Positions 4,398-47,699 of a stretch of DNA of 64,000 nucleotides are shown here, piece after piece. The stretch's first letter is position 1. Each line of letters opens with the position of its first letter. The notes under the pieces are model-generated. The model saw nothing but the letters and a program-made list of their open reading frames with translations, did not search any database and was not told where the DNA came from. Source of the stretch: Candidatus Woesearchaeota archaeon (GTDB lineage: Archaea; Nanobdellota; Nanobdellia; SCGC-AAA011-G17; JACPIM01); the NCBI GenBank assembly GCA_018302125.1, contig JAGWAC010000003.1:2206-66205 (forward strand), in the 5' to 3' direction. The position numbers and the translations under genes were made by a program.

Positions 4398-4401
4398 TTC
4401 T

Positions 4402-5469: not shown

Positions 5470-6045
5470 TTTAAATAATAACCTTTCAGTTTTTTAATTT
5501 AAATAATTATCGAAAATTATTTCTTGCAGGCTGGATTTTCTTGTACAAGTTTTTTTAAATTTCTGTTTAAATTCTCTTTAATATAGATATTTCACCTATC
5601 TAAAAAAGTTTAATTAAAAATTTCCTTAATTGAAAAATGTAAAGTAAACCTTTAAAGTATACACTTCTCAAAATCAATTAATTCTGTCAATAAGCTTCCT
5701 AAATTCATTTTTAGAAGATAAAATTGTATACTTGAGAGTGCACATTGTTTTCAAGTCAATTTGTAATATTGTCAGTTACTCATTAAATCTTAAAAGTTCT
5801 GAGAACTTTTCCATAAGACTGTATACTTAACAACTTTACTTAACATAAAAGGGCTCTGTATAATTAACTAATGGTGGAGAAATTCTTTCTCTCAAAAGTG
5901 TGAAATTTTGTCGTTTTAAGCTAATCTCATTTTTTTCAAATGAACTTTTATTTATAAAATTAAAGTCCCTAAATATATAGGCTTATTTTAAGATATATTC
6001 AAAGCTTTAAAAGGCCTTGTAAAAAAATAAATATTTGGGGTTTAT

Positions 6046-30939: not shown

Positions 30940-31812
30940 CTAAATTAACTTTTCATGCTTTTGTCTTATGCCTTCATATACTCCTATAAAAAAAGCAGAC
31001 ATTAAATCAAAATGACCTCTTTTTATAAAAAGACAAAACTGCATTGGCAGTATAAAAAATAAACTAATTAGCAAAAACAAACAATATCTTAATGAACTTA
31101 CATGTTTTTTCATAAAAATAAACCTGTTTCTTGTCAAGAAATAAACAACTCTTCTGTTCTTTTTTCCACCGCTGCTTCCATATAGTTTATGCCAAACTTT
31201 TGCTCTAGGATTAATGAATATTTTATATCCCTTTTCCATAGCCTTAAATTGAAGATCCTCAGTTTCAAGATATAAAAAATATTTCTCATCATATCCACCA
31301 AGATTTTGAAATATCTCCTTATTAAAAATCATTACACACGCATCAGTATATTCTCCATAGTTTAACTCCCTAATCTCTTTTTCATCTTTTAAAGCATTGC
31401 CTATGCCAGTAAATAAATTTATTCTGCCTCCAAAAGCATTTACTTTCTCCTTATCATTAAAATTATAAATAGCACCTCCGACAAAAGCAATTTTTCTATC
31501 TTTTTCAATTAATTCTAAAAGTTCTTTGACTGCCTCCTTGTCAACCTCAATATCAGGGTTTAACAATAAAACATATTTGCTTTCTATATATTCTAAAGCC
31601 TTGTTAACTCCACCAGCTAACCCAAAATTTTTATTGCTCTTAATTAAAATAACCTCTCCACATTCCTCTAATTTTCTTAAATCTTCATTTGAATTATTAT
31701 CAAAAATTAAAACATCAGAGTTTTTATAAGAAGAATCTTTTAAATTTTGAATTAAATTCAAAGTATCTCTTGTACTGTTGTAATTTACAATTAAAATGCA
31801 GAGTTTTTTCAT
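30940..31812 (-). CDS. family 2 glycosyltransferase (start likely at MKKLCILIVNYN)
   Basis: ILIVNYNS, DxD-like region, GT2 catalytic domain; C-terminal TM helix. Confidence 0.7.
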   Translation of the reverse strand: MKKLCILIVNYNSTRDTLNLIQNLKDSSYKNSDVLIFDNNSNEDLRKLEECGEVILIKSNKNFGLAGGVNKALEYIESKYVLLLNPDIEVDKEAVKELLELIEKDRKIAFVGGAIYNFNDKEKVNAFGGRINLFTGIGNALKDEKEIRELNYGEYTDACVMIFNKEIFQNLGGYDEKYFLYLETEDLQFKAMEKGYKIFINPRAKVWHKLYGSSGGKKNRRVVYFLTRNRFIFMKKHVSSLRYCLFLLISLFFILPMQFCLFIKRGHFDLMSAFFIGVYEGIRQKHEKLI

Positions 31813-31917
31813 GAATAAAAATAAAAAGCACAATATTTATAAACTACCTGTTTCTCTAAAAAATTACCCTTACTGTATCAATAATTAGTCGCTGATTCTA
31901 GAAAGAAATATAAAGCA

Positions 31918-31950
31918 AGTTTAGTCGTTTTTGATTAAACTTTTACAAAA
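31918..31950 (+). promoter_or_regulatory. shared upstream motif, instance 1 (abuts rpl3 ATG): AGTCGTTTTTGATTAAACTTTTACAAAA
   Basis: Shares CGTTTT - N4-7 - AAAC/AGCGC - TTTT - CAAAA/GAAAA arrangement with three other instances; coordinates +/-2. Confidence 0.45.
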
Positions 31951-32913
31951 ATGTCAAAATGGCATCATCCAAGACGGGGAAGTTTACAAGTCTGGCCTAG
32001 AAAGAGGTCTCAAAAACCATATTCAAGAATACATAATTGGGTGAAGAAAGAAGAATTAAAATTATTGGGCTTTATTGGCTATAAAGTGGGCATGTCTCAT
32101 GCAATGGTCAAAGACAATACCCCAAATTCTATAACAAAAAATCAAATTATCTCAATCCCGATTACAATCCTTGAGTGCCCCCCTTTAAAAGCTCTTTCTT
32201 TAAGATTTTACAAACAAAATTTTGATGGCTTAAAAGTTCTCTCAGAAGTTTTTTCAAAAAATATTGATAAAGAATTAAAAAGAAAAACAAAATTTTCTAA
32301 AAAAACAACAGAAATACCAAGTGAATTTGATGATGTAAAGTTGGTAGTTTACACAAAGCCATCCTTGACTTCAGTAGAAAGAAAAAAGCCTGAAGTTTTG
32401 GAAATAGCAGCTGGCGGAAAAACACTAAAAGAAAAATTAGAATTTTTAAAGCAATTCCTAGACAAGGAAATTAAAATATCCGATGTTTTTAAAAATAACC
32501 AGTTAATAGATGTTCATGGCGTAACAAAAGGCAAGGGTTTCCAAGGCACAATTAAAAGATTCGGTGTAAAAAGATTAAGTCATAAATCAAAGAAAAAAGT
32601 AAGGGGTATTGGAACACCTGGCCCATGGAATCCTTCTAAAGTTAGATACTCTGTCCCAAATACAGGTAAAATGGGTTATCATAAAAGAACTGAATATAAC
32701 AAATTAATATTAAAAATAAATAATAATGTCAAAGAAGTAAATCCAGTTTCTGGTTTTCTTAAATATGGTTTAATAAAAAATGATTATATTTTTGTAAAAG
32801 GCTCATTGCCAGGAGTAAGAAAGAGACCAATAGTATTGACAGAAGCAATAAGGCCGAGAAAAAGAACAGAATTATTTGAAATAACAAATGTAAATTTAAA
32901 GGTTAAAGAATGA
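31951..32913 (+). CDS. rpl3: 50S ribosomal protein L3
   Basis: MSKWHHPRRGSLQ... archaeal uL3 signature. Confidence 0.95.
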   Translation: MSKWHHPRRGSLQVWPRKRSQKPYSRIHNWVKKEELKLLGFIGYKVGMSHAMVKDNTPNSITKNQIISIPITILECPPLKALSLRFYKQNFDGLKVLSEVFSKNIDKELKRKTKFSKKTTEIPSEFDDVKLVVYTKPSLTSVERKKPEVLEIAAGGKTLKEKLEFLKQFLDKEIKISDVFKNNQLIDVHGVTKGKGFQGTIKRFGVKRLSHKSKKKVRGIGTPGPWNPSKVRYSVPNTGKMGYHKRTEYNKLILKINNNVKEVNPVSGFLKYGLIKNDYIFVKGSLPGVRKRPIVLTEAIRPRKRTELFEITNVNLKVKE

Positions 32914-33740
32914 AAGCAGATGTATATAATATAGACGGAAATAAGTCAGGATCAGTAGATTTGCCTAATCAGTTTAATGAGCCTTTAAGAAAAGATTTAA
33001 TTCAAAGAGCTTTTTTGGCAATAAGATCAAATAAAAAACAGCCTTATGGTTCTTACCCAAAAGCTGGCCAGAGAGTTTCAGCAAAATTATCAAGAAGAAG
33101 ACGTAAATTCAAAGGCGCTTATGGTAAAGGAATTTCCAGATCAGCAAGAAAAACAATATGGAGAAGAGGTAGTCAATTTGGTTGGGTAGGTGCATTTGCC
33201 CCAGGAACATATAAAGGTAGAAGAGCTCACCCCCCAAAAGCTTACAAAGACTATTCTGAGAAAATAAATAAAAAAGAAAATAAAAAAGCAATAAGATCAG
33301 CATTAGGCGCAGTTGCAAATGAAAATTTGGTAAAAGAAAGGGGCCATTTAATTAAAAATTTGCCTTTGATAATTGATAATAAAATATATGAAATTAAAAA
33401 AACAAAAGATCTTATAAAATTCTTGGAAAAAATTGGTTTAGAAAATGAGCTCCAGAGATTAAAAACAAGAAAAGTAAAAGCAGGACAAGGCTCTAAAAGA
33501 GGAAGAAAATACAAAAATAAAAAAGGCCCATTGTTTGTAATTGGTAAAAAAAATAATGTCTCAAAGATATTATCCTCAATAAGGGGGATTGATTGTGCTT
33601 TAATAAATAATATAAATGTAGAATTATTGGCCCCTGGTGGAGTTCCGGGTCGTTTAACACTTTTCACAAAAGATGCAATTGATGTTTTAAAAGAAAAAAA
33701 ATTATTTGAAAATATAAAACAGGAAAAGAAGATAAAGTAA
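32910..33740 (+). CDS. rpl4: 50S ribosomal protein L4
   Basis: archaeal uL4 motifs (DLIQRAF...QPYG...AHPPK). Confidence 0.9.
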   Translation: MKADVYNIDGNKSGSVDLPNQFNEPLRKDLIQRAFLAIRSNKKQPYGSYPKAGQRVSAKLSRRRRKFKGAYGKGISRSARKTIWRRGSQFGWVGAFAPGTYKGRRAHPPKAYKDYSEKINKKENKKAIRSALGAVANENLVKERGHLIKNLPLIIDNKIYEIKKTKDLIKFLEKIGLENELQRLKTRKVKAGQGSKRGRKYKNKKGPLFVIGKKNNVSKILSSIRGIDCALINNINVELLAPGGVPGRLTLFTKDAIDVLKEKKLFENIKQEKKIK

Positions 33741-33741
33741 A

Positions 33742-33999
33742 ATGGAAAGCTATGAAGTTATCAAATACCCTATAGCAACTGAAAAATGTTTCAAATTAAT
33801 GGAAACAGAAAATAAAGTTGTTTTCATAGTAGATAGAAAAGCAAAAAAGCCAGAAATAAAAAAGGCAGTTGAAGAAATGTTTAATGTAAAAGTTCAAAAA
33901 ATAAACACCTTAATCTGTGTAGAAGGAAAAAAAGCTTTTGTAAAGCTTCATAAAGATAATAATGCCATTGATGTTGCAACAAAATTAGGATTAATGTAA
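33742..33999 (+). CDS. rpl23: 50S ribosomal protein L23
   Basis: uL23 pattern (VIKYPIATEK...EIKKAVEEMFNVKV). Confidence 0.9.
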   Translation: MESYEVIKYPIATEKCFKLMETENKVVFIVDRKAKKPEIKKAVEEMFNVKVQKINTLICVEGKKAFVKLHKDNNAIDVATKLGLM

Positions 34000-34000
34000 A

Positions 34001-34342
34001 ATGATAGAATTTTTTAAAAAAACAGAATTGAAGAAAGGATCTACTTACAATACAGAGTTCTTTCCAGATAAAGTAATTTTAGAATCATTCAAATATTTAG
34101 GTCAATCAAATAGAACTCATGTCTTTGAAGGAAAAATAGAAATTAAAACTGGAGTTCCAATAGCTGAAGGTTTTATTTTACTTGAGGATCATTGGATGAT
34201 GGAAATAGATGGCGTTATAACTTATAAACCAATTTCGTCCTTTGCAATGGAATGGCATAGAAAAGAAGATATTGAAAAGGAAGCGCCAGAAGTAAAATCA
34301 AGATTAATAAAAATATTAGCAGAAGTAGGGACCCAAGTATAA
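34001..34342 (+). CDS. hypothetical protein inserted between rpl23 and rpl2
   Basis: 113 aa ORF, stop/start abutting both flanking r-protein genes; possible cupin-like beta motifs; no known r-protein signature. Confidence 0.5.
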   Translation: MIEFFKKTELKKGSTYNTEFFPDKVILESFKYLGQSNRTHVFEGKIEIKTGVPIAEGFILLEDHWMMEIDGVITYKPISSFAMEWHRKEDIEKEAPEVKSRLIKILAEVGTQV

Positions 34343-34343
34343 A

Positions 34344-35066
34344 ATGGGAAAGAGAATAATTATCAGAAGACGTGGACGCGGAACGCCAGTTTATAGAGCC
34401 CGCTCTAATCATTTCAAGGCAGAAGTAAGATACAGGAAATTTGATCAAGTAGAAAAATCAGGAAAAGTAATTGGCAGAGTAGTTGATTTAGTAAAATGCC
34501 CTGGTCATACAGCCCCATTAGCAAAAATAAAATTTCAAAATAATGAAGATGCATACATGTTGGCTCCTTTAAATTTAAAAGTTAATGATCTAATAGAATC
34601 AGGTTCTTTGTCTTCAGTAAATAATGGAAATATTTTGCCTTTAAAACAAATTCCAGAAGGAACTTTAGTATATAATATAGAAAGTTTTCCAGGTGATGGG
34701 GGAAAATTCTGCAGAGCAGCTGGAAATTTTGCAAAAATAATTTCATCAACAAAAGATTCAATTTTAATAGAGCTTCCTTCAAAAAAACAAAGAAAATTCA
34801 TTCCAGACTGCAGGGCAACAATTGGAATTTTATCAGGGCATGGGCGTAAAGATAAACCATTTGTAAAAGCAGGAAAAAGATGGCATTATATGAGAGCAAG
34901 AGGAAAAGTTTATCCTCAAACTTCAGCAGTAGCTATGAATGCATTAAATCATCCTTATGGTTCTGGTAGAGGCAGAAAACATGCTAAGATTAAAGTAGTC
35001 TCAAGAAATGCTCCACCAGGAAGAAAAGTAGGTAAAGTAGCTGCAAGAAGAACTGGTAGAAAGTAA
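34344..35066 (+). CDS. rpl2: 50S ribosomal protein L2
   Basis: uL2 signatures (RGRGTP, HPYGSGRG). Confidence 0.95.
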   Translation: MGKRIIIRRRGRGTPVYRARSNHFKAEVRYRKFDQVEKSGKVIGRVVDLVKCPGHTAPLAKIKFQNNEDAYMLAPLNLKVNDLIESGSLSSVNNGNILPLKQIPEGTLVYNIESFPGDGGKFCRAAGNFAKIISSTKDSILIELPSKKQRKFIPDCRATIGILSGHGRKDKPFVKAGKRWHYMRARGKVYPQTSAVAMNALNHPYGSGRGRKHAKIKVVSRNAPPGRKVGKVAARRTGRK

Positions 35067-35067
35067 A

Positions 35068-35466
35068 ATGGCAAAAGAAGCATTATACAAAGGTAAAAAT
35101 GAAAAAGAATTGAAAGACATGTCAATGAATGACTTTATACTAATTACAACATCAAGACCAAGAAGAGCATTAAAGAGAGGTCTTCCAGAAGCACATAAAA
35201 GATTAGTTGAAAAAGTAAAAAAATTCAAACAAGGAAAAGTAAAAAAAATTGTGAAAACACATTGTAGGGATATGATAGTTATACCTGAATTTTTGGGAGT
35301 TACAATTCATGTTTATAGTGGAAGGGAATTTGTTCCTGTTCCAATTACAGTTGAAAAATTAGGCCATGCATTAGGCGAATTTGTTTTAACAAGACACAAA
35401 GTACAGCACTCCGCACCAGGAGTTGGAGCAACAAGATCAAGCGCAGGAGCTTCACCTAAGAAATAA
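35068..35466 (+). CDS. rps19: 30S ribosomal protein S19
   Basis: uS19 motifs (THCRDMIV, VYSGREF, GATRSS). Confidence 0.9.
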   Translation: MAKEALYKGKNEKELKDMSMNDFILITTSRPRRALKRGLPEAHKRLVEKVKKFKQGKVKKIVKTHCRDMIVIPEFLGVTIHVYSGREFVPVPITVEKLGHALGEFVLTRHKVQHSAPGVGATRSSAGASPKK

Positions 35467-35472
35467 AGAAAA

Positions 35473-35913
35473 ATGGAAGAAAAAGATTTAGTAAAAGTAT
35501 CTGGATTCAATTTGCCTATTTCAACAAAGCATGCAATTGAACTTTGTTCATATATAAAAGGCAAGGAAGTCTCAAAAATAAAAGATACTTTGAATAAAGT
35601 AATTCAGGAAAAAACAGTAATCAAATTAAGAAGATTTTACCATAAAAGAGGTCATAAAAAAGGACATTTAGGTCCTGGTTTTTACCCAAAGAAAGCATCA
35701 ATGCATTTCCTTCAGTTGCTTCAGACTTTGGAAGGCAATGCAAAAAATAAGGGTCTCAACTCAGAATTATTGAAAATAGAAAAAGCAATTACAAATCAAG
35801 CCTCATTGTCTTGGCATTATAGTAGGCATAGGGGAAGGAGACAAAAAAGAACAAATGTGGAAATTTATGCATCAGAAAAATCAAAAAATAAAACTAAGGA
35901 AATTAAGAAATGA
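35473..35913 (+). CDS. rpl22: 50S ribosomal protein L22
   Basis: uL22 N-terminal pattern (GFNLPISTKHAIELC). Confidence 0.85.
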   Translation: MEEKDLVKVSGFNLPISTKHAIELCSYIKGKEVSKIKDTLNKVIQEKTVIKLRRFYHKRGHKKGHLGPGFYPKKASMHFLQLLQTLEGNAKNKGLNSELLKIEKAITNQASLSWHYSRHRGRRQKRTNVEIYASEKSKNKTKEIKK

Positions 35914-36665
35914 TAGAAAAGCAATTTGTTAATCAGAAAATAAAGGAATTCCAGATCCAGGAATACATTAAAGAAGAATTTAGCGGAACTGGATTCTCTC
36001 ATATAGATATTCAGAGAACTCCCTTGGGTGAAAAAGTAATTATTTACACAACTCGCCCAGGATTGGTTGTTGGTAAAAAAGGGGAAAACATCAGGAAATT
36101 AACAATTGTTCTTAAGAAAAAATTCAATATGGAGAATCCTCAAATTGAAATTGGTGAATTGCAAAATCCAATGCTTGATGCAAATTTTATTGCAGATAGA
36201 ATTAGTTCAACTTTAGTAAGGTTTGGCTCCAAGAGATTTAAGTCAGTGGGATACAAAACATTGCAAGACATAATCAATGCAGGTGCTTTGGGAGCAGAAA
36301 TAGTTATTTCAGGAAAAGTTCCAAGTGCAAGATCAAGAAGATGGAGATTCAAGGCAGGACACTTAAAAAAATCTGGTTATATTGCATCAGACAAAGTAAA
36401 AAAAGCAATAACTCAGGCAAAATTGAAGTCAGGAATAATCGGAATAAAAATAAGTATAATGACTCCAGATATAATATTGCCTGATAAAATTTTGGTTTTA
36501 AATAAAGAAATGGAATTAGTCGAGAAAAAACCCGAAGAAATTCCAAAAGAAACTCCAGAAAAAGAAATAAAAGAAGAGCCTAAGAAAAAAATGGTGAAAA
36601 AAACAAAAGAAAAAACTGAGGAAGAAAAAGTTCCTGAAGAAAAAATAGAAAATGAAAATAAATGA
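35910..36665 (+). CDS. rps3: 30S ribosomal protein S3 with K/E-rich C-terminal tail
   Basis: KH-domain uS3 signature (HIDIQRTPLGEKVIIYT...GKKGENI); ~45 aa lysine/glutamate tail. Confidence 0.9.
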   Translation: MIEKQFVNQKIKEFQIQEYIKEEFSGTGFSHIDIQRTPLGEKVIIYTTRPGLVVGKKGENIRKLTIVLKKKFNMENPQIEIGELQNPMLDANFIADRISSTLVRFGSKRFKSVGYKTLQDIINAGALGAEIVISGKVPSARSRRWRFKAGHLKKSGYIASDKVKKAITQAKLKSGIIGIKISIMTPDIILPDKILVLNKEMELVEKKPEEIPKETPEKEIKEEPKKKMVKKTKEKTEEEKVPEEKIENENK

Positions 36666-36873
36666 ATTAAGAGAAATTGGCAAGGAAAATTTAAAATCCA
36701 AATTAGTTGAACTTAAAAAAGAATTAATTGTTTTAAATGCAAAAAGGGCGCGTGGAACAACATTGGAAAAGCCAGCCCTAATAAGAAATACAAGAAGAAC
36801 AATTGCAAGGATATTAACATTAATGAATTCAAAAAATCAGACCCAGTCTGTGGAGGTTGTTAAAAAGAAATGA
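36652..36873 (+). CDS. rpl29: 50S ribosomal protein L29
   Basis: uL29 pattern ([13 protein letters not shown]...LNAKRARG). Confidence 0.85.
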
Positions 36874-37178
36874 ACGAAATTTGTTCAAAATGTGGTTTAC
36901 CAAAGGACCTTTGTGTCTGTCAAACAATAGCTAAAGAAGGTCAGAGAATAAAAATCAAAACAGAAAAAAGAAAATTCGGAAAATTAATTACAGTTGTTTA
37001 CGGAATCAACAAAAAGGAAATTGACCTTAAAGAATTGGCTAAAAAATTAAAATCAAAATTCGCATGTGGGGGAACAGTTAAAGGAGATACAATTGAATTA
37101 CAAGGAGAACACGCAGAAAAGACAAAGGAAGAACTCGTTCGTTTGGGTTTTTCACCAGAGTCTATAGAAACAAATTAA
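36870..37178 (+). CDS. sui1: translation initiation factor SUI1/eIF1 homolog
   Basis: [13 protein letters not shown]...ACGGTVK...IELQGEH SUI1 signature. Confidence 0.85.
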
Positions 37179-37179
37179 C

Positions 37180-37437
37180 ATGAACTTAAAAGATTTTTTA
37201 AGGCATGAGCTGATAGGTTTGAAAATGGAAGTAATAGAATCAAAAAACAAGAACTTGATAGGAATTCAGGGAACAATAATAGATGAAACAAAAAACACTT
37301 TGATAGTTAAAACTCCTGAAAAAAATGTAACTCTATTAAAAGACCAGGTAACATTAAGAATTTTCAAGGATAATCACGAAATAAAGGTAAATGGAGAGCT
37401 TTTGGTTGGAAGACCAGAAGACAGGTTGAAAAAATGA
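37180..37437 (+). CDS. rnp1: RNase P protein component 1 (Rpp29/Pop4)
   Basis: ELIGLKMEV...GTIIDETKNTL...GRPEDRL Rpp29 pattern; canonical position between rpl29/sui1 and rps17. Confidence 0.75.
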   Translation: MNLKDFLRHELIGLKMEVIESKNKNLIGIQGTIIDETKNTLIVKTPEKNVTLLKDQVTLRIFKDNHEIKVNGELLVGRPEDRLKK

Positions 37438-37772
37438 AGAAGCAGGATATATCAAACACAGGAATTAATTTGAAATTACCTAGCAAAAGCTGTGATGACA
37501 ATCATTGTCCTTTCCATAAAGGCCTAAAAATAAGAGGAAATTTTTTCACAGGAAAAGTTACAAAAATTAGTTCACAAAAAACAGCTCATGTTGAATTCCC
37601 TAGGTTATTTTACTTGCAGAAATATGAAAGATTTGAAAAAAGAAAATCAAGAATTCACGTTCACTCTACCCCATGCATTGACATCAAAGTTGGTGATGTG
37701 GTAAAAATCATGGAATGTAGACCAATATCAAAAATGAAAAATTTTGTAATTATAGAAAATGAAAGCACTTAA
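37434..37772 (+). CDS. rps17: 30S ribosomal protein S17
   Basis: uS17 OB-fold pattern (VGDVVKIMECRPISKMKNF). Confidence 0.9.
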   Translation: MKKQDISNTGINLKLPSKSCDDNHCPFHKGLKIRGNFFTGKVTKISSQKTAHVEFPRLFYLQKYERFEKRKSRIHVHSTPCIDIKVGDVVKIMECRPISKMKNFVIIENEST

Positions 37773-38160
37773 AGCAAGAATAACAAAAGGCCTTAATCAT
37801 GGCTCAGTAGTGGAAACCTGTGATAATTCAGGCGCTAAAATAGTTAGAGTAGTATCAATTAAAGGATCAAAAACAGTAAGGAGAAGAAAACCTTCCTGTG
37901 GAATTTCAGATTTAATTTTAGTTTCAGTATTAAAAGGCCAGACAGAAATGAGAAAACAGGTTGTCCCAGCAATTGTTGTTAGGCAAAAAAAAGAATACAG
38001 AAGAAAAGATGGCACAAGAATAAAATTTGCAGATAATGCAGTCATTATATTAAAAGATGAAAAGGGAAATCCAAAAGGAACAATGTTCAAAGGACCTATT
38101 GCTAAGGAGGTAGCTGAAAGATGGCCTGCTGTTGCCAAAGTTGCCAGCATAGTTGTATAA
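37759..38160 (+). CDS. rpl14: 50S ribosomal protein L14
   Basis: uL14 signature (VETCDNSGAK...GPIAKE). Confidence 0.9.
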   Translation: MKALKARITKGLNHGSVVETCDNSGAKIVRVVSIKGSKTVRRRKPSCGISDLILVSVLKGQTEMRKQVVPAIVVRQKKEYRRKDGTRIKFADNAVIILKDEKGNPKGTMFKGPIAKEVAERWPAVAKVASIVV

Positions 38161-38551
38161 AATGAGAAAAGCATTTTCAAAAAAATGGATTTCAAGTAAG
38201 CAGCCTAGAAAGCAGAGAAAATACAATGCTAATTCCCCATTTAATATAAGGCAGAAATTAATGTCAGCACATTTGTCTGAAGAATTGATTAAAAAATACA
38301 AGAGAAGAAATATCTCAGTAAAAAAAGGAGATAAAATAATTATAATGCGCGGTCAGTTTAAGGGAAAATTAGGATTAATCAATAAAGTAAACCTAAGAAA
38401 ATTAAGAATCTATGTTGACGGAGCTGAAATAGCTAAGAAAGATGGAACTAAATCATTTTACCCAATTCATCCTTCAAATGTACTTATTAAAGAATTAAAT
38501 TTAGAAGATAAAGAAAGGAAAAAATCAGTTGAAAGGTTAATAACAAAATGA
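38153..38551 (+). CDS. rpl24: 50S ribosomal protein L24
   Basis: KOW motif (VKKGDKIIIMRGQFKGKLG), PIHPSNV. Confidence 0.9.
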   Translation: MYKMRKAFSKKWISSKQPRKQRKYNANSPFNIRQKLMSAHLSEELIKKYKRRNISVKKGDKIIIMRGQFKGKLGLINKVNLRKLRIYVDGAEIAKKDGTKSFYPIHPSNVLIKELNLEDKERKKSVERLITK

Positions 38552-39219
38552 CACATCTAAAAAGAATTAATGTACCAAGTACATGGCCTGTTGAAAGGAA
38601 ATCAACAAAATTTATTACAAAACCTTCACCAGGGCCTCATAGATTAGAAGAAAGTATGCCTTTGGGTGTAATACTTAGGGAAATATTAAAATTAGGTAAA
38701 GAAAAAAGAGAAATAAAAATAATTTTAAACGACAATAAAGTTCTTGTAAATAATAAAATAAGAAAAAAATTCGATTTTCCAGTTGGAATTCTTGATACAT
38801 TGTCTATCCCAGATATAAGTAAGTTCTACAAATTAGTTTATTCAACAAAAGGAAGATTAATATTAAAAGAAATAAATAAAGAAGAAAGCAATTACAAAAT
38901 ATGCAAAATAATTGGAAAAACAATTCTAAAGAAGAAAAAAATACAGCTAAATTTCTATAATGGTGAAAATCTGGTTATAGATAAAGACATCTATAAAGTT
39001 CGTGATTCAGTTATTCTTAAGGATAATAAAATTGTAAAGCATTTGCAATTTGAAAAAAATGCCTTAATTTATTTAACAGGCGGCAAACATATTGGAAATA
39101 AAGGAATTTTAGTTGATATTAAAAAAGCTCCAGGATTTTCAAAGGATATTGTTGTATTTAAAATTGATAATAAACTGCATGAAACTTTAGCAGATTATTC
39201 ATTCATATTGGAAAAATGA
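38548..39219 (+). CDS. rps4e: 30S ribosomal protein S4e
   Basis: HLKRINVPSTWPVERK...PSPGPH eS4 N-terminal signature. Confidence 0.9.
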   Translation: MTHLKRINVPSTWPVERKSTKFITKPSPGPHRLEESMPLGVILREILKLGKEKREIKIILNDNKVLVNNKIRKKFDFPVGILDTLSIPDISKFYKLVYSTKGRLILKEINKEESNYKICKIIGKTILKKKKIQLNFYNGENLVIDKDIYKVRDSVILKDNKIVKHLQFEKNALIYLTGGKHIGNKGILVDIKKAPGFSKDIVVFKIDNKLHETLADYSFILEK

Positions 39220-39722
39220 ACAAGATGAAAGAAATTAGGATAGCGAAAGTAACCTTGAATATAGGTACTGGTGGACCAGGTGAAAGATTAGAAAAAGGTC
39301 TTAAATTATTAAATAAAATTTCAGATATGAAACCAGTTCCAACAACTACCCAAAAAAGAATTCCTACTTGGGATATACGTCCCGGATTGCAGATAGGTTG
39401 TAAAGTTACTATAAGAGGGAAAAAAGCTGAAGAATTATTAGGTAGACTATTAGCAGCAAATGAAGAAAAAATGTCTTCAGTAAAATTTGACAATCAAGGC
39501 AATTTCTCATTTGGAATTGAAGAATATATTGATATTCAAGGATTGCAATATGATGCTTCAATCGGAATTATTGGTTTTGATGTTTCAGTAACCCTGGAAA
39601 GACCAGGTTTCAGAATTAAAAAAAGGGCAATAATGAAAAGAAAAATCCCAATAAAGCATAGAATAACAAAGCAGGAAGCTATTGAATTCATAAATAAAAA
39701 ATATTCATTAAAGGTTTCATAA
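39216..39722 (+). CDS. rpl5: 50S ribosomal protein L5
   Basis: uL5 pattern (IAKVTLNIG...[12 protein letters not shown]). Confidence 0.9.
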
Positions 39723-40347: not shown

Positions 40348-40896
40348 ATGAAAGGAAAAAAACTTTTTGAAGAAATTGAAATTCCGCAGGGAATAGAAGT
40401 TTCAATAGATGATAATAATTTAAAATTAAAAGGTCCGAAAGGAGAAATTCAGAAAAACTTCACACCATTAAAAGTTGAATTAAAAAAAACAGAGAATAAA
40501 TTAAATTTCTCAGTTCATGGAGTTTCAAGAAAATCTAAGGATTACCTAAATTCTGCAGTTTCTCACTTTGATAATATGATTAAAGGTGTAAAAGAAGGTT
40601 ACACTTACAGATTAAAGATTTGTTCCGGCCATTTTCCTATGAATGTTGCTGTAGATAAAAATAAAATAATAATTAAAAATTTCTTGGGTGAAAAAGTTCC
40701 AAGAGTTGCAGATATAATTGAAAACGTAAATGTAAAAATCAATGGCGACATAATTGTTGTTGAAAGTCTTGATAAAGACAAAGCAGGGCAAGTTAGTGCA
40801 AATATAGAAATCGCAACAAAAATCTCAAATAAAGACAGACGCGTATTCCAGGACGGGATATTTATTACAGAAAAAGCAGGAGAGCCAATTAAATGA
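40348..40896 (+). CDS. rpl6: 50S ribosomal protein L6
   Basis: two uL6 repeats (IPQGIEVSIDDNNLKLKGPKGE...). Confidence 0.9.
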   Translation: MKGKKLFEEIEIPQGIEVSIDDNNLKLKGPKGEIQKNFTPLKVELKKTENKLNFSVHGVSRKSKDYLNSAVSHFDNMIKGVKEGYTYRLKICSGHFPMNVAVDKNKIIIKNFLGEKVPRVADIIENVNVKINGDIIVVESLDKDKAGQVSANIEIATKISNKDRRVFQDGIFITEKAGEPIK

Positions 40897-41459
40897 AATC
40901 AATGCAACAATTATTAGAATTAAGAAAAAAAATTAAGGAGAATAAACCGGAATTCATTAGGCAAGAATATCCTGCTAGAAAAAAATTGGAGAAAATTTGG
41001 AGAAAGCCTAAAGGCATCCATTCCAAGATGAGGGAAAAGAAATTAGGTAAAAGAAAACAGCCTAGTGTCGGTTATAAATCTCCAAGAATGGTTCGTGGTT
41101 TAAGCAGAGAAGGTCTAATCCCGATTTTAGTTTATACATTAAATGACTTGGTAAAAGTAACTAAAAATAATATTGTAATTATAGGAAAAAATGTCGGAAA
41201 CAAAAAAAGAATTGAATTATTGAAAAAAATAAAGGAAAAAGGTTTCAAAATTCAGAACATAAAAAACATAGATGAAAAAATTAGATCATTAACTCAAGAA
41301 TTTGAAAAGAGAATAAAAGAAAAGAAGGAAAGATTAAATGCAAAAGAAAAGAAGCCAGAGAAAAAACCAGAAGTAAAAGAAGAAAAAACAGAAACAGAAG
41401 AGGAAAAGAAGAAAAGAGAACAAGAAGAAAAAAGAAAAGTCTTGGAAGGTAAGAAATGA
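40893..41459 (+). CDS. rpl32e: 50S ribosomal protein L32e with K/E-rich C-terminal extension
   Basis: WRKPKGIHSKMR...VGYKSPRMVRGL eL32 signature; ~50 aa KE-rich tail. Confidence 0.85.
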   Translation: MKSMQQLLELRKKIKENKPEFIRQEYPARKKLEKIWRKPKGIHSKMREKKLGKRKQPSVGYKSPRMVRGLSREGLIPILVYTLNDLVKVTKNNIVIIGKNVGNKKRIELLKKIKEKGFKIQNIKNIDEKIRSLTQEFEKRIKEKKERLNAKEKKPEKKPEVKEEKTETEEEKKKREQEEKRKVLEGKK

Positions 41460-42439: not shown

Positions 42440-43270
42440 TTGGTGAAGCTTTTTCATAAAAAGATTCCAATGGAAAAGAAAAAACTTCCAGAACAAGAAG
42501 AAAGCAAGCTTGAAAGCACAGAAGTTGCTCTAGTTCTAGAATCAACTCCTGAAGCTTCAGAACTACCTGCAGGAGTAGTTATAAAAGAAGAAATATCTAA
42601 TTGGACACCTAAAACAAGAATAGGAAATCTTGTTAAAGAAGGCAAAATAAATAATATTGATGAAATTTTGGGAAAAGGATTAAGAATTCTTGAATCCCAA
42701 ATTGTTGATATTTTATTGCCTAATTTGGAAACAGATTTTATCATGGTAGGTCAAAGCAAAGGCAAATTTGGTGGTGGAAAAAGATCTATTTGGAGACAGA
42801 CACAGAAAAAAACAGCAGAAGGTAACAAGCCTAAATTTTCAGCTTTGGCAATTATAGGAAATAAAGAAGGTTATATTGGCTTTGGCTATGGTAAAGCAAA
42901 AGAGACTGTGCCAGCCAAAGAAAAAGCAATAAGAAAAGGAAAACTAAATTTAATTAAAATTAGGAATGGATGTGGTTCATGGGAATGCAGCTGTTCAGGT
43001 TCTCATTCTATCCCATTCACAGTTAATGCAAAATGTGGTTCAGTTGAAATTGAACTTTTGCCAGCCCCAAAAGGCACTGGTTTATGTGTCGAAAAAGAAT
43101 GTGCAAAATTATTGAATTTTGCAGGTATAAGGGATGTTTATTCTAGAACTTTTGGTCAGACAAGAACAAAATTTAATTTAATTTCAGCTTGCTTTGATGC
43201 TTTAAAAAAATTAAGCACAACGAAATCTCAGCATAAGGTAAGAGGGCAAATTCCAGAGGGTATATCATAA
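42440..43270 (+). CDS. rps5: 30S ribosomal protein S5 with extended N-terminus
   Basis: uS5 core (GKFGGGKRSIWRQ...RNGCGSWECSCSGSHS...APKGTGL); ~45 aa acidic N-terminal extension. Confidence 0.9.
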   Translation: MVKLFHKKIPMEKKKLPEQEESKLESTEVALVLESTPEASELPAGVVIKEEISNWTPKTRIGNLVKEGKINNIDEILGKGLRILESQIVDILLPNLETDFIMVGQSKGKFGGGKRSIWRQTQKKTAEGNKPKFSALAIIGNKEGYIGFGYGKAKETVPAKEKAIRKGKLNLIKIRNGCGSWECSCSGSHSIPFTVNAKCGSVEIELLPAPKGTGLCVEKECAKLLNFAGIRDVYSRTFGQTRTKFNLISACFDALKKLSTTKSQHKVRGQIPEGIS

Positions 43271-43750: not shown

Positions 43751-44161
43751 ATGCCGGTAAATAAAAGAAAGAAAAATTCAAGATTAAAAGGAAGCCATAC
43801 ATATGGTTGGGGTAGTAAAAAAAAGCACAGAAAAGCCGGTAATAGGGGCGGTCATGGGATGTCAGGCACTGGAAAAAGATCTGACCACAAAAAAACTATG
43901 ATTTTGAAAAAATATGGTCATGATTATTTTGGTAAAACTGGATTTAAAAGACCCCAACAAGTACTATTAAAAATAAAAACAATCAATATCGAAGATCTAA
44001 ACAAATTTAAAGAAGATAAAATAGATTTATTAAAACTAGGTTACAATAAATTATTGGGTAAAGGAAACATAAATAAAAAGGTAACTATAATAGTTCCTAA
44101 ATTTAGCGAAAGTGCAAAAGAAAAAATTGAAAAAGCAGGTGGACAAATCTTAGAACAATGA
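43751..44161 (+). CDS. rpl15: 50S ribosomal protein L15
   Basis: glycine/basic-rich uL15 N-terminus (GSHTYGWGSKKKHRKAGNRGGHG). Confidence 0.85.
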   Translation: MPVNKRKKNSRLKGSHTYGWGSKKKHRKAGNRGGHGMSGTGKRSDHKKTMILKKYGHDYFGKTGFKRPQQVLLKIKTINIEDLNKFKEDKIDLLKLGYNKLLGKGNINKKVTIIVPKFSESAKEKIEKAGGQILEQ

Positions 44162-45558
44162 GTATTCTAGACAATTTAACAAAAAAGCTTCCAGAAGTAA
44201 AAGGTCCAGAAGAAAAATACCTTTCTTTTAATACTAAATTAAAATGGACTTTAATAATCTTATCAGCATTTTACATATTAAGTGTTGTTCCTTTGTATGG
44301 TCTTGGCCAAAATGCCTTGTCGCAATTTGAATCCTTATCTATATTATTGGGAGCTAGTTTTGGCAGTATTTTATCTTTGGGTATTGGTCCAATAGTTACT
44401 GCATCCATAGTTTTGCAGTTATTAGTTGGTTCAGAAATATTAAAATTTGATACAACAACAAAAGAAGGAAGGGCAAAATTTCAGGGCGTTCAAAAAATAG
44501 CGGCAATTTTCTTTATTATTTTTGAGGCTGTTATTTATGTAATTTTAGGTGGTTTAGCTCCAGCATCAGATTTGTCTCAGTCAACATTTTTCACTATTCA
44601 ATTAGTCTTGATTTTTCAGTTATTAGTCGGAGGAATGATAGTTTTATTTATGGATGAAGTTTTGAATAAATGGGGATTTGGTTCTGGTATTTCATTGTTC
44701 ATAGCTGCAGGAGTTTCTTCACAAATTTTTGTAAGAATATTGTCGCCATTAACAAGAGCAGGAACTTTTGCATTTAGTTCAGGCGAAAGTCCAGTTGGGC
44801 AATTATGGGTATTTTTACTTTCATTAATAGGAAGAAATCCAAGAGAAGCATTCTTGGCTGCTCTGTTAATAATATTCACAATATTAATTTTCATAGTAGC
44901 AACATATGTCCAGTCTATGAAAGTTGAAATTCCTTTAAGTTTTGGAAGAATAAGGGGTCATGGAATAAGGTGGCCTTTGAAATTTATTTATACATCAAAT
45001 ATCCCTGTTATTTTAATAGCTGCTTTGTTTGCAAATATTCAGCTATGGGCAAGATTATTGGAAAGTCGGGGTTACCCTATTTTAGGAACTTTTGCAGGCA
45101 ATGTGCCAGTTTCAGGAATTGTTGCTTGGTTATTTGCTCCTAATTTGCCAGCAGAAATTTTGGGTGGTAGTTTCAGGCCAATTTTAATACTTCAATCATT
45201 AGTTTATATATCTACATTTGTAATTGGTTCTATAATATTCTCTATTTTCTGGGTTCAGACATCTGGAATGAATGCTTCTTCCCAGGCAAAGCAGATAATT
45301 AATTCAGGCTTGCAAGTACCAGGATTTAGGCGAGATCCAAGAGTTGTTGAAAGATTACTAGAAAGATATATATCTCCTCTAACTGTAATGGGGGCTATAG
45401 TAGTTGGTTTTTTGGCATCAACAGCAGACTTGTTAGGGGCTTTGTCTAGCGGTACTGGAATTCTTCTTACAGTAATGATTATATATAGATTATATGAAGA
45501 TATTAGTAAACAGCATATGGCTGACATTAATCCAGTATTCAGAAAAATGATAGAATAA
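44158..45558 (+). CDS. secY: preprotein translocase subunit SecY
   Basis: 10 TM layout, conserved TM2/plug region (GIGPIVTASIVLQLL), canonical position after rpl15. Confidence 0.9.
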   Translation: MSILDNLTKKLPEVKGPEEKYLSFNTKLKWTLIILSAFYILSVVPLYGLGQNALSQFESLSILLGASFGSILSLGIGPIVTASIVLQLLVGSEILKFDTTTKEGRAKFQGVQKIAAIFFIIFEAVIYVILGGLAPASDLSQSTFFTIQLVLIFQLLVGGMIVLFMDEVLNKWGFGSGISLFIAAGVSSQIFVRILSPLTRAGTFAFSSGESPVGQLWVFLLSLIGRNPREAFLAALLIIFTILIFIVATYVQSMKVEIPLSFGRIRGHGIRWPLKFIYTSNIPVILIAALFANIQLWARLLESRGYPILGTFAGNVPVSGIVAWLFAPNLPAEILGGSFRPILILQSLVYISTFVIGSIIFSIFWVQTSGMNASSQAKQIINSGLQVPGFRRDPRVVERLLERYISPLTVMGAIVVGFLASTADLLGALSSGTGILLTVMIIYRLYEDISKQHMADINPVFRKMIE

Positions 45559-45559
45559 A

Positions 45560-46012
45560 ATGGCATTAGAAACTTTTTTTGATATAATATTTGGTCCTGT
45601 AATAGCTTTAGGTAATCCTTGGAATATTATTATAATTTCTTTTTTCTTGACATTAATAGTTAATTTAGCTATGAAATTCTTTACTAATCAAAAAATCATG
45701 AAATCTTTAAAAGAAGACACTGAATATTTTAAAAAAGAAATGCAAAAGTTTAAAAATGACCCGCAAAAACTAATAGAAATACAAAAGAAATCAATGGAAA
45801 CAAGCTTAAAATATTTGAAGCATTCGCTTCCAGCAACATTAGTAACCTTGCTTCCCTTGTTGTTAATTTTTGGATGGTTAAGACAAACCTTCCCATCTGA
45901 ACAGATATTATTAATCCTGCCTTTTGGCATTAATTTAGGATGGCTTGGTTCCTACATATTGTTTTCAATTATATTTAGTATAATTTTAAGAAAAATATTA
46001 AAGATACACTAA
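45560..46012 (+). CDS. DUF106/EMC3-TMCO1-like membrane protein (archaeal YidC/Oxa1-superfamily insertase candidate)
   Basis: 3-TM protein with coiled-coil loop rich in K/E/Q; canonical position downstream of secY in archaea. Confidence 0.55.
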   Translation: MALETFFDIIFGPVIALGNPWNIIIISFFLTLIVNLAMKFFTNQKIMKSLKEDTEYFKKEMQKFKNDPQKLIEIQKKSMETSLKYLKHSLPATLVTLLPLLLIFGWLRQTFPSEQILLILPFGINLGWLGSYILFSIIFSIILRKILKIH

Positions 46013-46013
46013 A

Positions 46014-46688
46014 ATGCCAATACAACCACAAGCAACAAGAAGTTTAAGAAGAATTCAAGTAAGAACTCCTGGCAACAGGTTAGTTACTCATTTTGAAAAG
46101 AAAAAACCAACAATAGCTAAATGTGGAAATTGTGGTCAAGAATTAAAAGGTATTCCTAGAGAAAGACCGACAGCTTTCAGAAATTTGCCTTATTCTCAAA
46201 AAACAGTTTCTAGGCCTTTTGGCGGAAATCTATGTTCAAAATGTTCAAGAGAAAAAATAATTGAAAAATTCAAGGATATTAAAGAATTCCCCTTGGAAAT
46301 TGGCCAGGTTTGTGTAAAAACAGCAGGAAAAGAAGCAGGTTCTGTATGTGTAATAGTGGAGAAATTAGATGAGAATTTTGTTTTAATTGATGGCCAGGTA
46401 AAAAGAAGAAAATGTAATGTCTTGCACTTAAAAACATTGGATAAAAAACTGGAAATTAAAAAAAATGAGTCTTCTGAAACTATAAAAAGGGAATTAAAAG
46501 CATTAGGTTTTGAAATAAAAGAAGGAAGAAAGAAAGAAAAGAAAGCTCTTCCTGAGAAAAAAGAAATTAAAAAGGAAGAAAAAGTCGCTGAGAAAAAAGA
46601 GGCTAAAAAAGAGCCTAAGAAAACTGAAAAATCTGAAATTAAAAAAAAGAAAGCTGAAAAACCAAAATCTAAAGGAGTCAAGAAATAG
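46014..46688 (+). CDS. fused ribosomal proteins L34e (N-terminal) and L14e (KOW, middle) with K/E-rich tail
   Basis: N-term RRIQVRTPGNRLVTHFEKKKP...CGNCGQEL...GGNLCSKC (eL34); residues ~95-150 GQVCVKTAGKEAGSVCVIVEKLDENFVLIDG (eL14 KOW); single continuous ORF. Confidence 0.7.
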   Translation: MPIQPQATRSLRRIQVRTPGNRLVTHFEKKKPTIAKCGNCGQELKGIPRERPTAFRNLPYSQKTVSRPFGGNLCSKCSREKIIEKFKDIKEFPLEIGQVCVKTAGKEAGSVCVIVEKLDENFVLIDGQVKRRKCNVLHLKTLDKKLEIKKNESSETIKRELKALGFEIKEGRKKEKKALPEKKEIKKEEKVAEKKEAKKEPKKTEKSEIKKKKAEKPKSKGVKK

Positions 46689-47141: not shown

Positions 47142-47699
47142 TTAAAATTCCTTTCTTCTTTTCAAATACTCAACTAATTCTTTTGAAATCAAAGGTTTAT
47201 TTTTTATTAGTAAATATCTATAAGGTAAAATAACAGAGTCATATTTTCCTAATTGAATCTCTATTTTTTCCTTGAATTTTAAATCTTTTAACTTCTTTCC
47301 TTTTAAAATTTCTTTTACAACAGCAACCGCATTATCAGTGCTAAATTGTTTTTTTCCAATGTTTCTAGCTGTGAAGTTTAGTTTTTTAGTTAATTCTTTT
47401 TTCGTTCTTTTTTTCGGAGGATAATCCCCCAAAATCCCGCCAAAAATAAAATATTTAAATTTTTTAGCCTCTTCCGGACTTAAAGTTTTCTTTGCATCTG
47501 GATCTAATATACAGGCATTTTTTAAATTTAATTCAGAAATAGATTTGCTATTTCTTTTGCCGTATTTCCCTAATTGCTTGTTTTTAATATTAGTAAATAA
47601 CAGTTTCCCTTTTCCAACAATTTTAGAAATATGTTTATATTCAATTAAGCACCATTTCCATAATTTACAATCTAAATGTTCTATAATAAAAGTAGCCAT
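47142..47699 (-). CDS. SPOUT-class methyltransferase of the SFM1/DUF431 family
   Basis: Clear similarity to yeast Sfm1 blocks: IIEH...W.LIEY.HI, LDP.A...L.PEEAKKF.YF.FGGILGD.PP, RN.G.KQ.STD.A. Confidence 0.65.
   Translation of the reverse strand: MATFIIEHLDCKLWKWCLIEYKHISKIVGKGKLLFTNIKNKQLGKYGKRNSKSISELNLKNACILDPDAKKTLSPEEAKKFKYFIFGGILGDYPPKKRTKKELTKKLNFTARNIGKKQFSTDNAVAVVKEILKGKKLKDLKFKEKIEIQLGKYDSVILPYRYLLIKNKPLISKELVEYLKRRKEF

What the first reader, a model, noticed from the sequence alone, without database searches (positions are those of the whole stretch)
34001..34342. Unknown 113-aa gene embedded between rpl23 and rpl2 in the conserved r-protein operon
The L3-L4-L23-L2-S19 gene order is among the most conserved in all cellular life. 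Here an ORF (MIEFFKKTELKKGSTYNTEFFPDKVILESFKYLGQSNRTHVFEGKIEIKTGVPIAEGFILLEDHWMMEIDG...) sits 1 nt after the rpl23 stop and ends 1 nt before the rpl2 start. It is therefore co-translated with the operon. It has no r-protein signature. It may form a small beta-rich (cupin-like) fold.
Basis: seen in the sequence. Interest (0 to 1): 0.65.

Follow-up and report, generated by a model that had tools for sequence, protein, structure and literature searches.

The report
Unknown small gene beside rpl2
A real but uncharacterised 113-residue protein gene sits between the ribosomal protein genes L23 and L2 of a Woesearchaeota-like archaeon; it belongs to a new, fast-evolving family usually found right next to the L2 gene, so it is a candidate lineage-specific ribosome partner, but it could equally be a passenger using a highly expressed operon.

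Summary
A 113-aa ORF (34001-34342, +) lies 1 nt after the rpl23 stop and 1 nt before the rpl2 start.

It is a genuine gene:
- Its codon usage matches its neighbours.
- It has orthologues at 39-98% identity.
- AlphaFold2 gives a confident model (pLDDT 87).
- It belongs to a family of about 30 clusters of 88-131-aa proteins.

Nine of the twelve family lineages I located flank rpl2 (seven L23|L2, two L2|S19); three lie elsewhere. In the window's own clade (L2 ≥75% identical) all six loci carry it. The next relatives (62-64%) do not.

The protein is not basic (pI 5.6). Its amino-acid sequence changes 2-17 times faster than those of its neighbours, and its tree disagrees with theirs. Related archaea often hold other, unrelated small ORFs at the same junctions.

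Best guess, at low confidence: a non-enzymatic binding protein made alongside large-subunit proteins and acting with uL2 or the ribosome. The nearly equal rival is a passenger gene in an insertion-tolerant operon.

The parts
33742..33999 (+). rpl23 (uL23), 85 aa, the upstream neighbour
   Evidence: Pfam Ribosomal_L23, E 8.8e-19. Its stop codon TAA is at 33997-33999.
33997..34003 (+). Junction TAA-A-ATG between rpl23 and X. One spacer base, with no room for a promoter or terminator.
   Evidence: Raw sequence. The same TAAAATG junction is used at X|L2 and L2|S19.
34001..34342 (+). Gene X: a 113-aa protein of a new family. The model has seven β-strands plus two C-terminal helices. pI is 5.6.
   Evidence: - ORF.
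- Family of about 30 small-protein clusters.
- AF2 pLDDT 87.3.
- No significant known family.
- pI.
- Native codon usage.
34340..34346 (+). Junction TAA-A-ATG between X and rpl2
   Evidence: Raw sequence.
34344..35066 (+). rpl2 (uL2), 240 aa, the gene that family members flank in 9 of 12 located lineages
   Evidence: Pfam Ribosomal_L2_C, E 4.9e-40. It is collinear and equal in length (240 aa) with L2 of relatives that lack X.
31951..39722 (+). The surrounding archaeal r-protein cluster: L3-L4-L23-X-L2-S19-L22-S3-L29-SUI1-Rpp29-S17-L14-L24-S4e-L5. X is the only unidentified gene in it.
   Evidence: ORF list. The identical gene order, with Pfam labels, is seen in the relatives L009, L012 and L099.

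Best explanation
X is a functional protein-coding gene of a previously undescribed family confined, as far as sampled, to Woesearchaeota-like DPANN archaea. It has been built into the rpl23-rpl2 junction with the operon's own stop-A-start punctuation. It is therefore transcribed with, and probably translationally coupled to, the large-subunit protein genes, and made in comparable amounts (inferred). The protein is small, non-basic and β-rich, with two C-terminal helices. Its conserved positions are mainly aromatic, Gly and Pro residues with no recognisable catalytic motif. I therefore read it as a binding or adaptor module rather than an enzyme or an rRNA-binding core protein (inferred). Family members in two distant clades sit immediately beside rpl2, on either side. 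The most likely role is thus a lineage-specific ribosome-associated factor that works with uL2 or the large subunit, for example an escort or assembly helper for the very basic uL2, or a peripheral accessory protein. Shown: gene reality, family, fold class, position, conservation pattern and evolutionary rate. Inferred: co-expression, binding role and the uL2 or ribosome partner.
For: - Location: of 12 family lineages located, 7 lie at L23|L2 (window, P0002, P0003, P0004, P0005, P0007, L014) and 2 at L2|S19 (P0035, P0036).
- Fixation: X is present in all 6 non-redundant loci of the window's clade, where L2 is ≥75% identical.
- Paralogue: in L094 a weak second X-like ORF (E 4.8e-4) lies on the other side of L2.
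- Integration: the spacers are the same 1-nt spacers used between r-protein genes, and codon usage and GC3 are native.
- Selection: dN/dS is below 1 in all six pairs, 0.3-0.8.
- No link to viruses or mobile elements, and no consistent link to defence systems.
Against: - The protein is not basic: pI is 5.6 and the family median is 6.1.
- It evolves far faster than its neighbours: dN is 2-17 times that of L23, L2 or S19, and dN/dS is 0.3-0.8 against 0.05-0.32.
- Its tree disagrees with the r-protein tree. Window and L012 share 91-94% identical L23, L2 and S19 but only 39-41% identical X, whereas window and L001 share 80-85% and 65-68%.
- It is absent from most relatives: L23 abuts L2 in most of 72 sampled loci, including the nearest outgroups L015 and L016.
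- Three family lineages lie outside r-protein operons.
- The same junctions hold unrelated genes elsewhere, including a pentapeptide-repeat protein, a membrane peptide and other ORFans. The site is therefore simply permissive.
- All structural similarities are below significance.
- There is no expression or interaction data.
Confidence: 0.4

Rival explanations
1. Passenger gene. The junctions flanking rpl2 (and L4|L23) in these reduced genomes tolerate insertions. Small genes that land there gain strong expression without needing a promoter, and are then trapped because the operon cannot be rearranged. Under this reading X does something unrelated to the ribosome. Its fast evolution would fit a role in conflict or in host-symbiont interaction. 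Its place next to rpl2 would reflect descent and local shuffling, not function.
For: - In an X-independent sample of 80 L2-anchored loci, inserts of ≥190 nt occur at L23|L2 in 9/72, at L2|S19 in 6/70 and at L4|L23 in 6/60. They occur at L3|L4 in 0/43.
- The inserted genes are heterogeneous: a pentapeptide-repeat protein, a 69-aa membrane peptide, a roughly 217-aa RNase_T-like exonuclease and several unrelated ORFans.
- X has a high dN, a tree discordant with the r-proteins, a patchy distribution and non-ribosomal copies.
- X is neutral to acidic.
Against: - X is fixed in every sampled member of the window's clade.
- It is retained beside rpl2 in a second clade whose L2 is only 44-48% identical.
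- There is no consistent match to defence systems, phage families or viral contigs.
- A passenger with an unrelated role would be expected to relocate or be lost more often than 9 of 12 lineages beside one gene suggests. This last point is an inference from a small sample.
Confidence: 0.4
2. X is a bona fide new structural ribosomal protein of this lineage, bound stoichiometrically to the mature 50S subunit. This would parallel the lineage-specific r-proteins reported for Sulfolobales and Desulfurococcales.
For: - The operon position and the coupling to r-protein genes.
- Small size and a β-barrel-like model faintly resembling bL19.
- Precedent for clade-restricted archaeal r-proteins, mentioned in PMC3353972.
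Against: - pI is 5.6, with no basic patches evident in the sequence.
- X is absent from most relatives whose ribosomal proteins are otherwise collinear.
- Sequence turnover is very fast for a protein held in a fixed rRNA or protein pocket.
- Some copies lie outside r-protein operons.
Confidence: 0.1
3. X is a spurious or decaying ORF with no function, kept open by chance in an AT-rich genome.
For: There is no known family. dN/dS is relatively high, up to 0.8 in one saturated pair.
Against: - The frame is intact in all orthologues down to 34% identity.
- The family has conserved motifs (Y16, P22, Y32, G34, F42, W65, S79, L106).
- The AF2 model is confident.
- There is an in-frame codon signal.
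- AT-rich sequence is rich in stop codons, so a 342-nt open frame that exactly fills the gap is not expected by chance.
Confidence: 0.02

Closest known systems
Non-ribosomal genes embedded in the archaeal r-protein cluster (aIF1/SUI1, RNase P protein Rpp29, SecY, adenylate kinase)
   Same: These are non-r-protein genes packed inside the same conserved cluster and co-expressed with r-proteins. SUI1 and Rpp29 are present in this very window downstream of L29.
   Different: Those genes are ancient, slowly evolving, near-universal in archaea and of known function. X is restricted to a few Woesearchaeota-like lineages, evolves 2-17 times faster than its neighbours at the amino-acid level, and has no known family.
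RimM (bacterial 30S maturation factor with a PRC-barrel C-domain that binds uS19, encoded in the rpsP-rimM-trmD-rplS operon)
   Different: The scores are far below significance. No RimM or PRC Pfam hit was found in any of 32 family members. RimM is bacterial and has two domains.
Dedicated r-protein escort chaperones of eukaryotes (for example Bcp1 for uL2, Acl4 for uL4, Yar1 for uS3)
   Same: These are non-basic proteins that bind one very basic r-protein before assembly. This is only an analogy for how an X-uL2 partnership could work, drawn from my own knowledge and not tested here.
   Different: There is no sequence or fold relationship, and those chaperones are not operon-encoded. No evidence here shows that X binds uL2.
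DUF402-type β-barrel proteins (nucleoside diphosphatases SC4828, SA1684 and FomD; archaeal RNase FAU-1)
Clade-specific archaeal ribosomal proteins (the three Sulfolobales/Desulfurococcales-specific proteins noted in PMC3353972)
   Same: They show that archaeal ribosomes can carry small proteins restricted to one clade.
   Different: Those proteins were found by ribosome proteomics, whereas X has no biochemical evidence. X is non-basic, and no homology was detected.

Membership tests
Known ribosomal protein families (universal, archaeal or eukaryotic-type) | Sequence match to a curated r-protein model | tested here: not met
   No Pfam or NCBIfam family matched X at E ≤ 1-10. No r-protein family matched any of the 32 family members. 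The PDB sequence search, which includes ribosome chains, gave nothing at E < 1.
Known ribosomal protein families (universal, archaeal or eukaryotic-type) | Strongly basic composition typical of rRNA-binding r-proteins | tested here: not met
   pI is 5.6 with net charge -3.2. The family median pI is 6.1.
Known ribosomal protein families (universal, archaeal or eukaryotic-type) | Physical presence in purified ribosomes | not testable with these tools
   This needs ribosome proteomics or cryo-EM of a Woesearchaeota enrichment.
SH3-like / Tudor / PRC small β-barrels (bL19, RimM C-domain, Tudor domains) | Significant structural superposition on a five-stranded SH3-like barrel | tested here: inconclusive
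DUF402 (FAU-1 / nucleoside diphosphatase) domain | Pfam DUF402 profile match and a conserved metal-binding acidic/His set | tested here: not met
Anti-phage defence proteins (PADLOC) and phage protein families (PHROGs, BFVD, IMG/VR) | Profile, structural or genomic match to a defence or viral family | tested here: not met
   PADLOC gave no hit for X and only isolated single-member hits among the 32. PHROGs gave none. The best BFVD Foldseek match has E 0.08. No relatives were found in viral contigs with two queries.
Split or fused domain of uL23 or uL2 | X replaces a segment missing from the neighbouring r-protein, or is in frame with it | tested here: not met
   L2 is 240 aa and collinear in loci with and without X. 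L23 is 85 aa in both. The three genes are in three different frames with intact stops.

The most novel reading that the evidence does not exclude
X could be the best-sampled branch of a larger superfamily that also includes the more divergent small ORFs at L23|L2, L2|S19 and L22|S3 in other DPANN lineages. Under this reading these are rapidly evolving, lineage-specific proteins that dock on uL2 or the large subunit. DPANN archaea would then decorate an otherwise reduced ribosome with fast-changing accessory subunits encoded inside the r-protein operon itself.
Probability: 0.15. Interest if true: 0.8.

Novelty: new variant of a known kind. Interest (0 to 1): 0.5.

Why it matters
The L3-L4-L23-L2-S19 block is among the most rigid gene arrays known. 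It is therefore notable that it can carry a clade-fixed extra gene and, more broadly, that the two flanks of rpl2 are recurrent insertion points in DPANN archaea.

If X binds uL2 or the ribosome, it would be a lineage-specific ribosome component or assembly helper in organisms with minimal genomes and no cultured model. That claim could be tested directly by proteomics or cryo-EM of enrichments.

If X is a passenger, it shows how reduced genomes recruit new, fast-evolving genes by placing them inside essential, highly expressed operons. It also warns against reading function from operon position alone.

In either case the family of about 30 clusters, with a confident model and no significant fold match, deserves a family definition.

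Tried and rejected
- **Cupin fold:** rejected.
- **Known r-protein, Pfam, NCBIfam, PHROG or PADLOC family:** no significant hits, only isolated single-member PADLOC matches.
- **PDB sequence and profile search:** only noise, E ≥ 1.6.
- **Giant-protein hits from the representative search (P0006, P0019, P0028):** these are LRR, Ig or CshA repeat proteins, so I treated the matches as repeat-driven artefacts.
- **Viral origin:** no BFVD match below E 0.08, and no relatives in IMG/VR with two queries.
- **RNA element instead of a gene:** no Rfam match, folding z-score 0.16.
- **Split or compensating piece of L2:** rejected, because L2 is collinear at 240 aa with or without X.
- **Superfamily link between X and the other inserted ORFs ('Y' group, alignment A6):**
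  - The Y members are linked to each other by phmmer at 3e-6 to 1e-2 in a database of about 70 sequences.
  - They are linked to X only by hhalign at 51-56% probability, P 1e-4 to 2e-5.
  - L018 versus the X HMM gives E 0.004.
  - The AF2 model of a Y member failed (pLDDT 40, four-sequence alignment).
  - The link therefore stays tentative.
- **Profile scan of GTDB genomes:** The narrow alignment found one genome.
- **AFDB50 fold library:** not available.
- **Literature:** four searches found nothing on inserts in DPANN r-protein operons.

Full report
**1. The observation.**

The window carries a standard archaeal r-protein cluster on the + strand: L3, L4, L23, L2, S19, L22, S3, L29, SUI1, Rpp29, S17, L14, L24, S4e, L5 and onward. 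L23 (33742-33999) and L2 (34344-35066) are identified by Pfam. Both junctions read TAA-A-ATG, and L2|S19 has the same punctuation.

X's GC (0.295), GC3 (0.184) and in-frame codon likelihood (-3.63 per codon, against -4.45 and -4.28 out of frame) cannot be told apart from those of the flanking r-protein genes. There is no Rfam match in 31000-37000 and no unusual RNA structure.

**2. X is a real gene of a new family.**

The word-indexed search found only two relatives, at 98% and 65% identity. The exhaustive phmmer search of 1.8 billion representatives found 34 hits at E ≤ 1e-3. Thirty-one of these are small proteins of 88-131 aa aligned end to end. The other three are giant LRR, Ig or CshA repeat proteins, which I treat as repeat artefacts.

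The 32-sequence alignment (A2) has:
- invariant Y32, G34 and F42;
- near-invariant Y16, P22, W65, S79 and L106;
- a consensus of KP.L..G..Y.VELYP......YLG.....HVF ... L.DDHW..E..G.ITY.P.SS ... S.L.KIL...G.

None of the 32 members matches a Pfam family convincingly. X matches nothing in NCBIfam, PHROGs or PADLOC. Neither X nor the profile matches a PDB sequence.

**3. Structure.**

AlphaFold2 on A2 gives mean pLDDT 87.3 and pTM 0.78. The model has strands at 15-20, 25-36, 39-48, 52-62, 66-69, 72-75 and 84-87, followed by helices at 88-93 and 96-108.

Fold searches found nothing significant:
- Foldseek against PDB has a best E of 0.5.
- Foldseek against viral models has a best E of 0.08.

The protein is β-rich and may be a divergent small barrel. 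It is not a cupin and has no significant structural relative in the libraries available. AFDB50 was not available.

**4. Where family members live.**

I located 12 lineages.

| Position | Lineages |
|---|---|
| L23-X-L2 | window/L002; L001 (P0002); L009 (P0003, a MAG labelled Candidatus Woesearchaeota); L012 (P0004); L099 (P0005); L094 (P0007); L014 |
| L2-X-S19 | L005 (P0035); L006 (P0036) |
| Outside r-protein operons | P0031/P0037, in a run of ORFans with a TrmB regulator; P0016, next to a protein with an HExxH-like motif; P0025, on a short contig not next to L2 |

In L001 a pentapeptide-repeat gene sits between X and L2. In L094 a 93-aa ORF on the other side of L2 gives a weak X-HMM hit (E 4.8e-4).

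**5. How general is the insertion?**

I sampled 80 metagenome loci anchored on L2 relatives at 40-78% identity, chosen independently of X. In these, L23 normally abuts L2, with a median gap of 10 nt. Only L014, the closest at 78%, carries X.

On an L2 neighbour-joining tree, all six non-redundant loci with L2 ≥75% identical to the window carry X at L23|L2. The nearest outgroups L015 and L016 (63-64%) have nothing there. L018 (62%) has a 112-aa ORF that is only faintly X-like (E 0.004 in a 43-sequence database). The other X-bearing loci (L094, L005, L006) sit in a distant clade with L2 44-48% identical.

The same junctions are recurrent insertion points. Inserts of ≥190 nt occur as follows:

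| Junction | Loci with insert |
|---|---|
| L23\|L2 | 9/72 |
| L2\|S19 | 6/70 |
| L4\|L23 | 6/60 |
| L22\|S3 | 2/55 |
| L3\|L4 | 0/43 |

The contents are heterogeneous. L4|L23 usually holds an RNase_T-like exonuclease of about 217 aa. The L2 flanks hold ORFans of 65-169 aa.

**6. A possible superfamily.**

Several of those ORFans (in L030, L040, L059, L069, L072, L075 and L081) resemble X in three ways. They have a similar length, an N-terminal L..G..v.v motif and a C-terminal ..LLK.L.E.Gl helix. They are linked to one another by phmmer at 3e-6 to 1e-2 in a database of about 70 sequences.

Profile-profile comparison with X gives only 51-56% probability, P 1e-4 to 2e-5. A structure prediction for one of them failed for lack of homologues (pLDDT 40). 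I regard this link as a lead and not a result.

**7. Evolutionary behaviour.**

X changes much faster than its neighbours. Percent identity to the window:

| Locus | L23 | L2 | S19 | X |
|---|---|---|---|---|
| L012 | 91 | 91 | 94 | 39-41 |
| L001 | 84 | 85 | 80-81 | 65-68 |
| L009 | 87 | 85 | 76 | 46-50 |

The r-proteins pair the window with L012, whereas X pairs the window with L001 and L009 with L014. The X tree is therefore discordant. This points to strong lineage-specific acceleration or to replacement of the allele in place.

Nei-Gojobori estimates give X a dN of 0.21-0.52, against 0.03-0.24 for the neighbours. dN/dS is 0.3-0.8 for X and 0.05-0.32 for the neighbours. Synonymous sites are close to saturation in this AT-rich genome, so the ratios are rough. 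X is under purifying selection, but much weaker selection than its neighbours. Against the near-identical L002 contig, X has 1 synonymous and 2 non-synonymous differences, which is too few to interpret.

**8. What X is not.**

- It is not a fragment of L23 or L2. The frames differ, and L2 is collinear at 240 aa with or without X.
- It is not basic. pI is 5.6 and the family median is 6.1.
- It is not viral, and it has no consistent match to defence systems.

**9. Interpretation.**

Two readings remain nearly balanced.

*(a) A ribosome-linked factor.* In its favour: the family is concentrated on the two flanks of rpl2 in two distant clades; X is fixed in the window's clade; and it is fully adopted into the operon's coupling punctuation. 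The non-basic composition and the structural-type conserved residues suggest a protein-binding module rather than an enzyme or rRNA binder. Examples would be an escort or assembly helper for the very basic uL2, or a peripheral accessory protein.

*(b) A passenger.* In its favour: the junctions are demonstrably permissive and hold unrelated genes elsewhere; X evolves fast and discordantly; it is absent from most relatives; and it also occurs outside r-protein operons.

I put (a) at about 0.4 and (b) at about 0.4. A true structural r-protein gets about 0.1 and a non-functional ORF about 0.02.

**10. Comparison with the known.**

The kind of thing, a non-r-protein gene embedded in the r-protein cluster, is familiar. 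SUI1, Rpp29, SecY and Adk are examples. What is new is the protein family itself, its restriction to the flanks of rpl2, and its rapid turnover inside one of the most conserved gene arrays.

Four literature searches found no description of this. PMC3353972 only notes clade-specific archaeal r-proteins as a precedent.

Verdict: a real and modestly interesting feature of unresolved function. I score interest at 0.5.

Noticed in passing
L005:840-1493; L059:2737-3387; L075:2724-3389; L077:2980-3639; L081:3104-3760; L085:3151-3762: A conserved protein of about 203-221 aa lies between rpl4 and rpl23 in one DPANN clade. It carries a faint precomputed RNase_T Pfam hit and its N-terminus reads like a DEDD-type exonuclease. 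The copies match each other at 1e-47 to 1e-96. This is a second, different gene built into the same operon.
   Followed up: partly
L001:1686-2279: A 197-aa pentapeptide-repeat protein is inserted between X and rpl2 in the 65%-identical relative, again with 1-nt spacers.
   Followed up: no
L018:1114-1452; L030:2134-2472; L040:3586-3999; L059:3622-3999 and 4708-5217; L069:3063-3425; L072:4699-5034; L075:4722-5117; L081:5645-6028: ORFans of 111-169 aa sit at L23|L2, L2|S19 or L22|S3. They share X's length, an N-terminal L..G..v.v motif and a C-terminal LLK.L.E.Gl helix. They are weakly linked to each other and, tentatively, to X (hhalign probability about 55%). They may form a wider superfamily.
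   Followed up: partly
L009:7049-7327; L005:1737-2051; L006:2736-3065; L031:2386-2745; L043:986-1195; L063:964-1203; L069:4129-4368; L082:799-1080: Further small ORFs at the rpl2 flanks have no detectable similarity to X or to anything in Pfam. One is a 69-aa predicted membrane peptide (L043).
   Followed up: partly
L061, L064, L072, L076, L077, L081, L086, L092, L093 (the S19|L22 'gaps'): The apparent gaps before rpl22 are Lys/Glu-rich N-terminal extensions of L22 that start MTEKNYNPEQK... They are conserved across several lineages.
   Followed up: no
window 47142-47699 (-): An SFM1-like protein arginine N-methyltransferase (Pfam E 1.6e-52) lies just downstream of the r-protein cluster. The yeast enzyme methylates ribosomal protein uS3 (from my own knowledge).
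   Followed up: no
window 42440-43270; 40893-41459; 46014-46688: Three r-proteins carry long extra segments. S5 has an N-terminal extension of about 115 aa (276 aa in total). L32e has a C-terminal extension of about 65 aa (188 aa). The L34e domain occupies only residues 7-86 of a 224-aa protein.
   Followed up: no
window 45560-46012: A 150-aa EMC3/TMCO1-like membrane protein is encoded directly after SecY (44158-45558).
   Followed up: no
L003:945-3757; L007:1501-4686: The non-ribosomal copy of the family (P0031/P0037) sits in a tight run of seven or eight same-strand ORFans around a TrmB-family regulator. In L007 a nucleotidyltransferase and a DDE transposase follow. This may be a mobile or accessory island.
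   Followed up: partly
L062:534-2586 versus 4001-6045: In one relative the L3-L23-L4 genes are on the opposite strand and detached from L2-S19-L22-S3, so the cluster is broken exactly at the L23|L2 junction.
   Followed up: no
L099:1-1889: A radical-SAM / B12-binding protein containing an intein lies upstream of the r-protein cluster in the P0005 relative.
   Followed up: no
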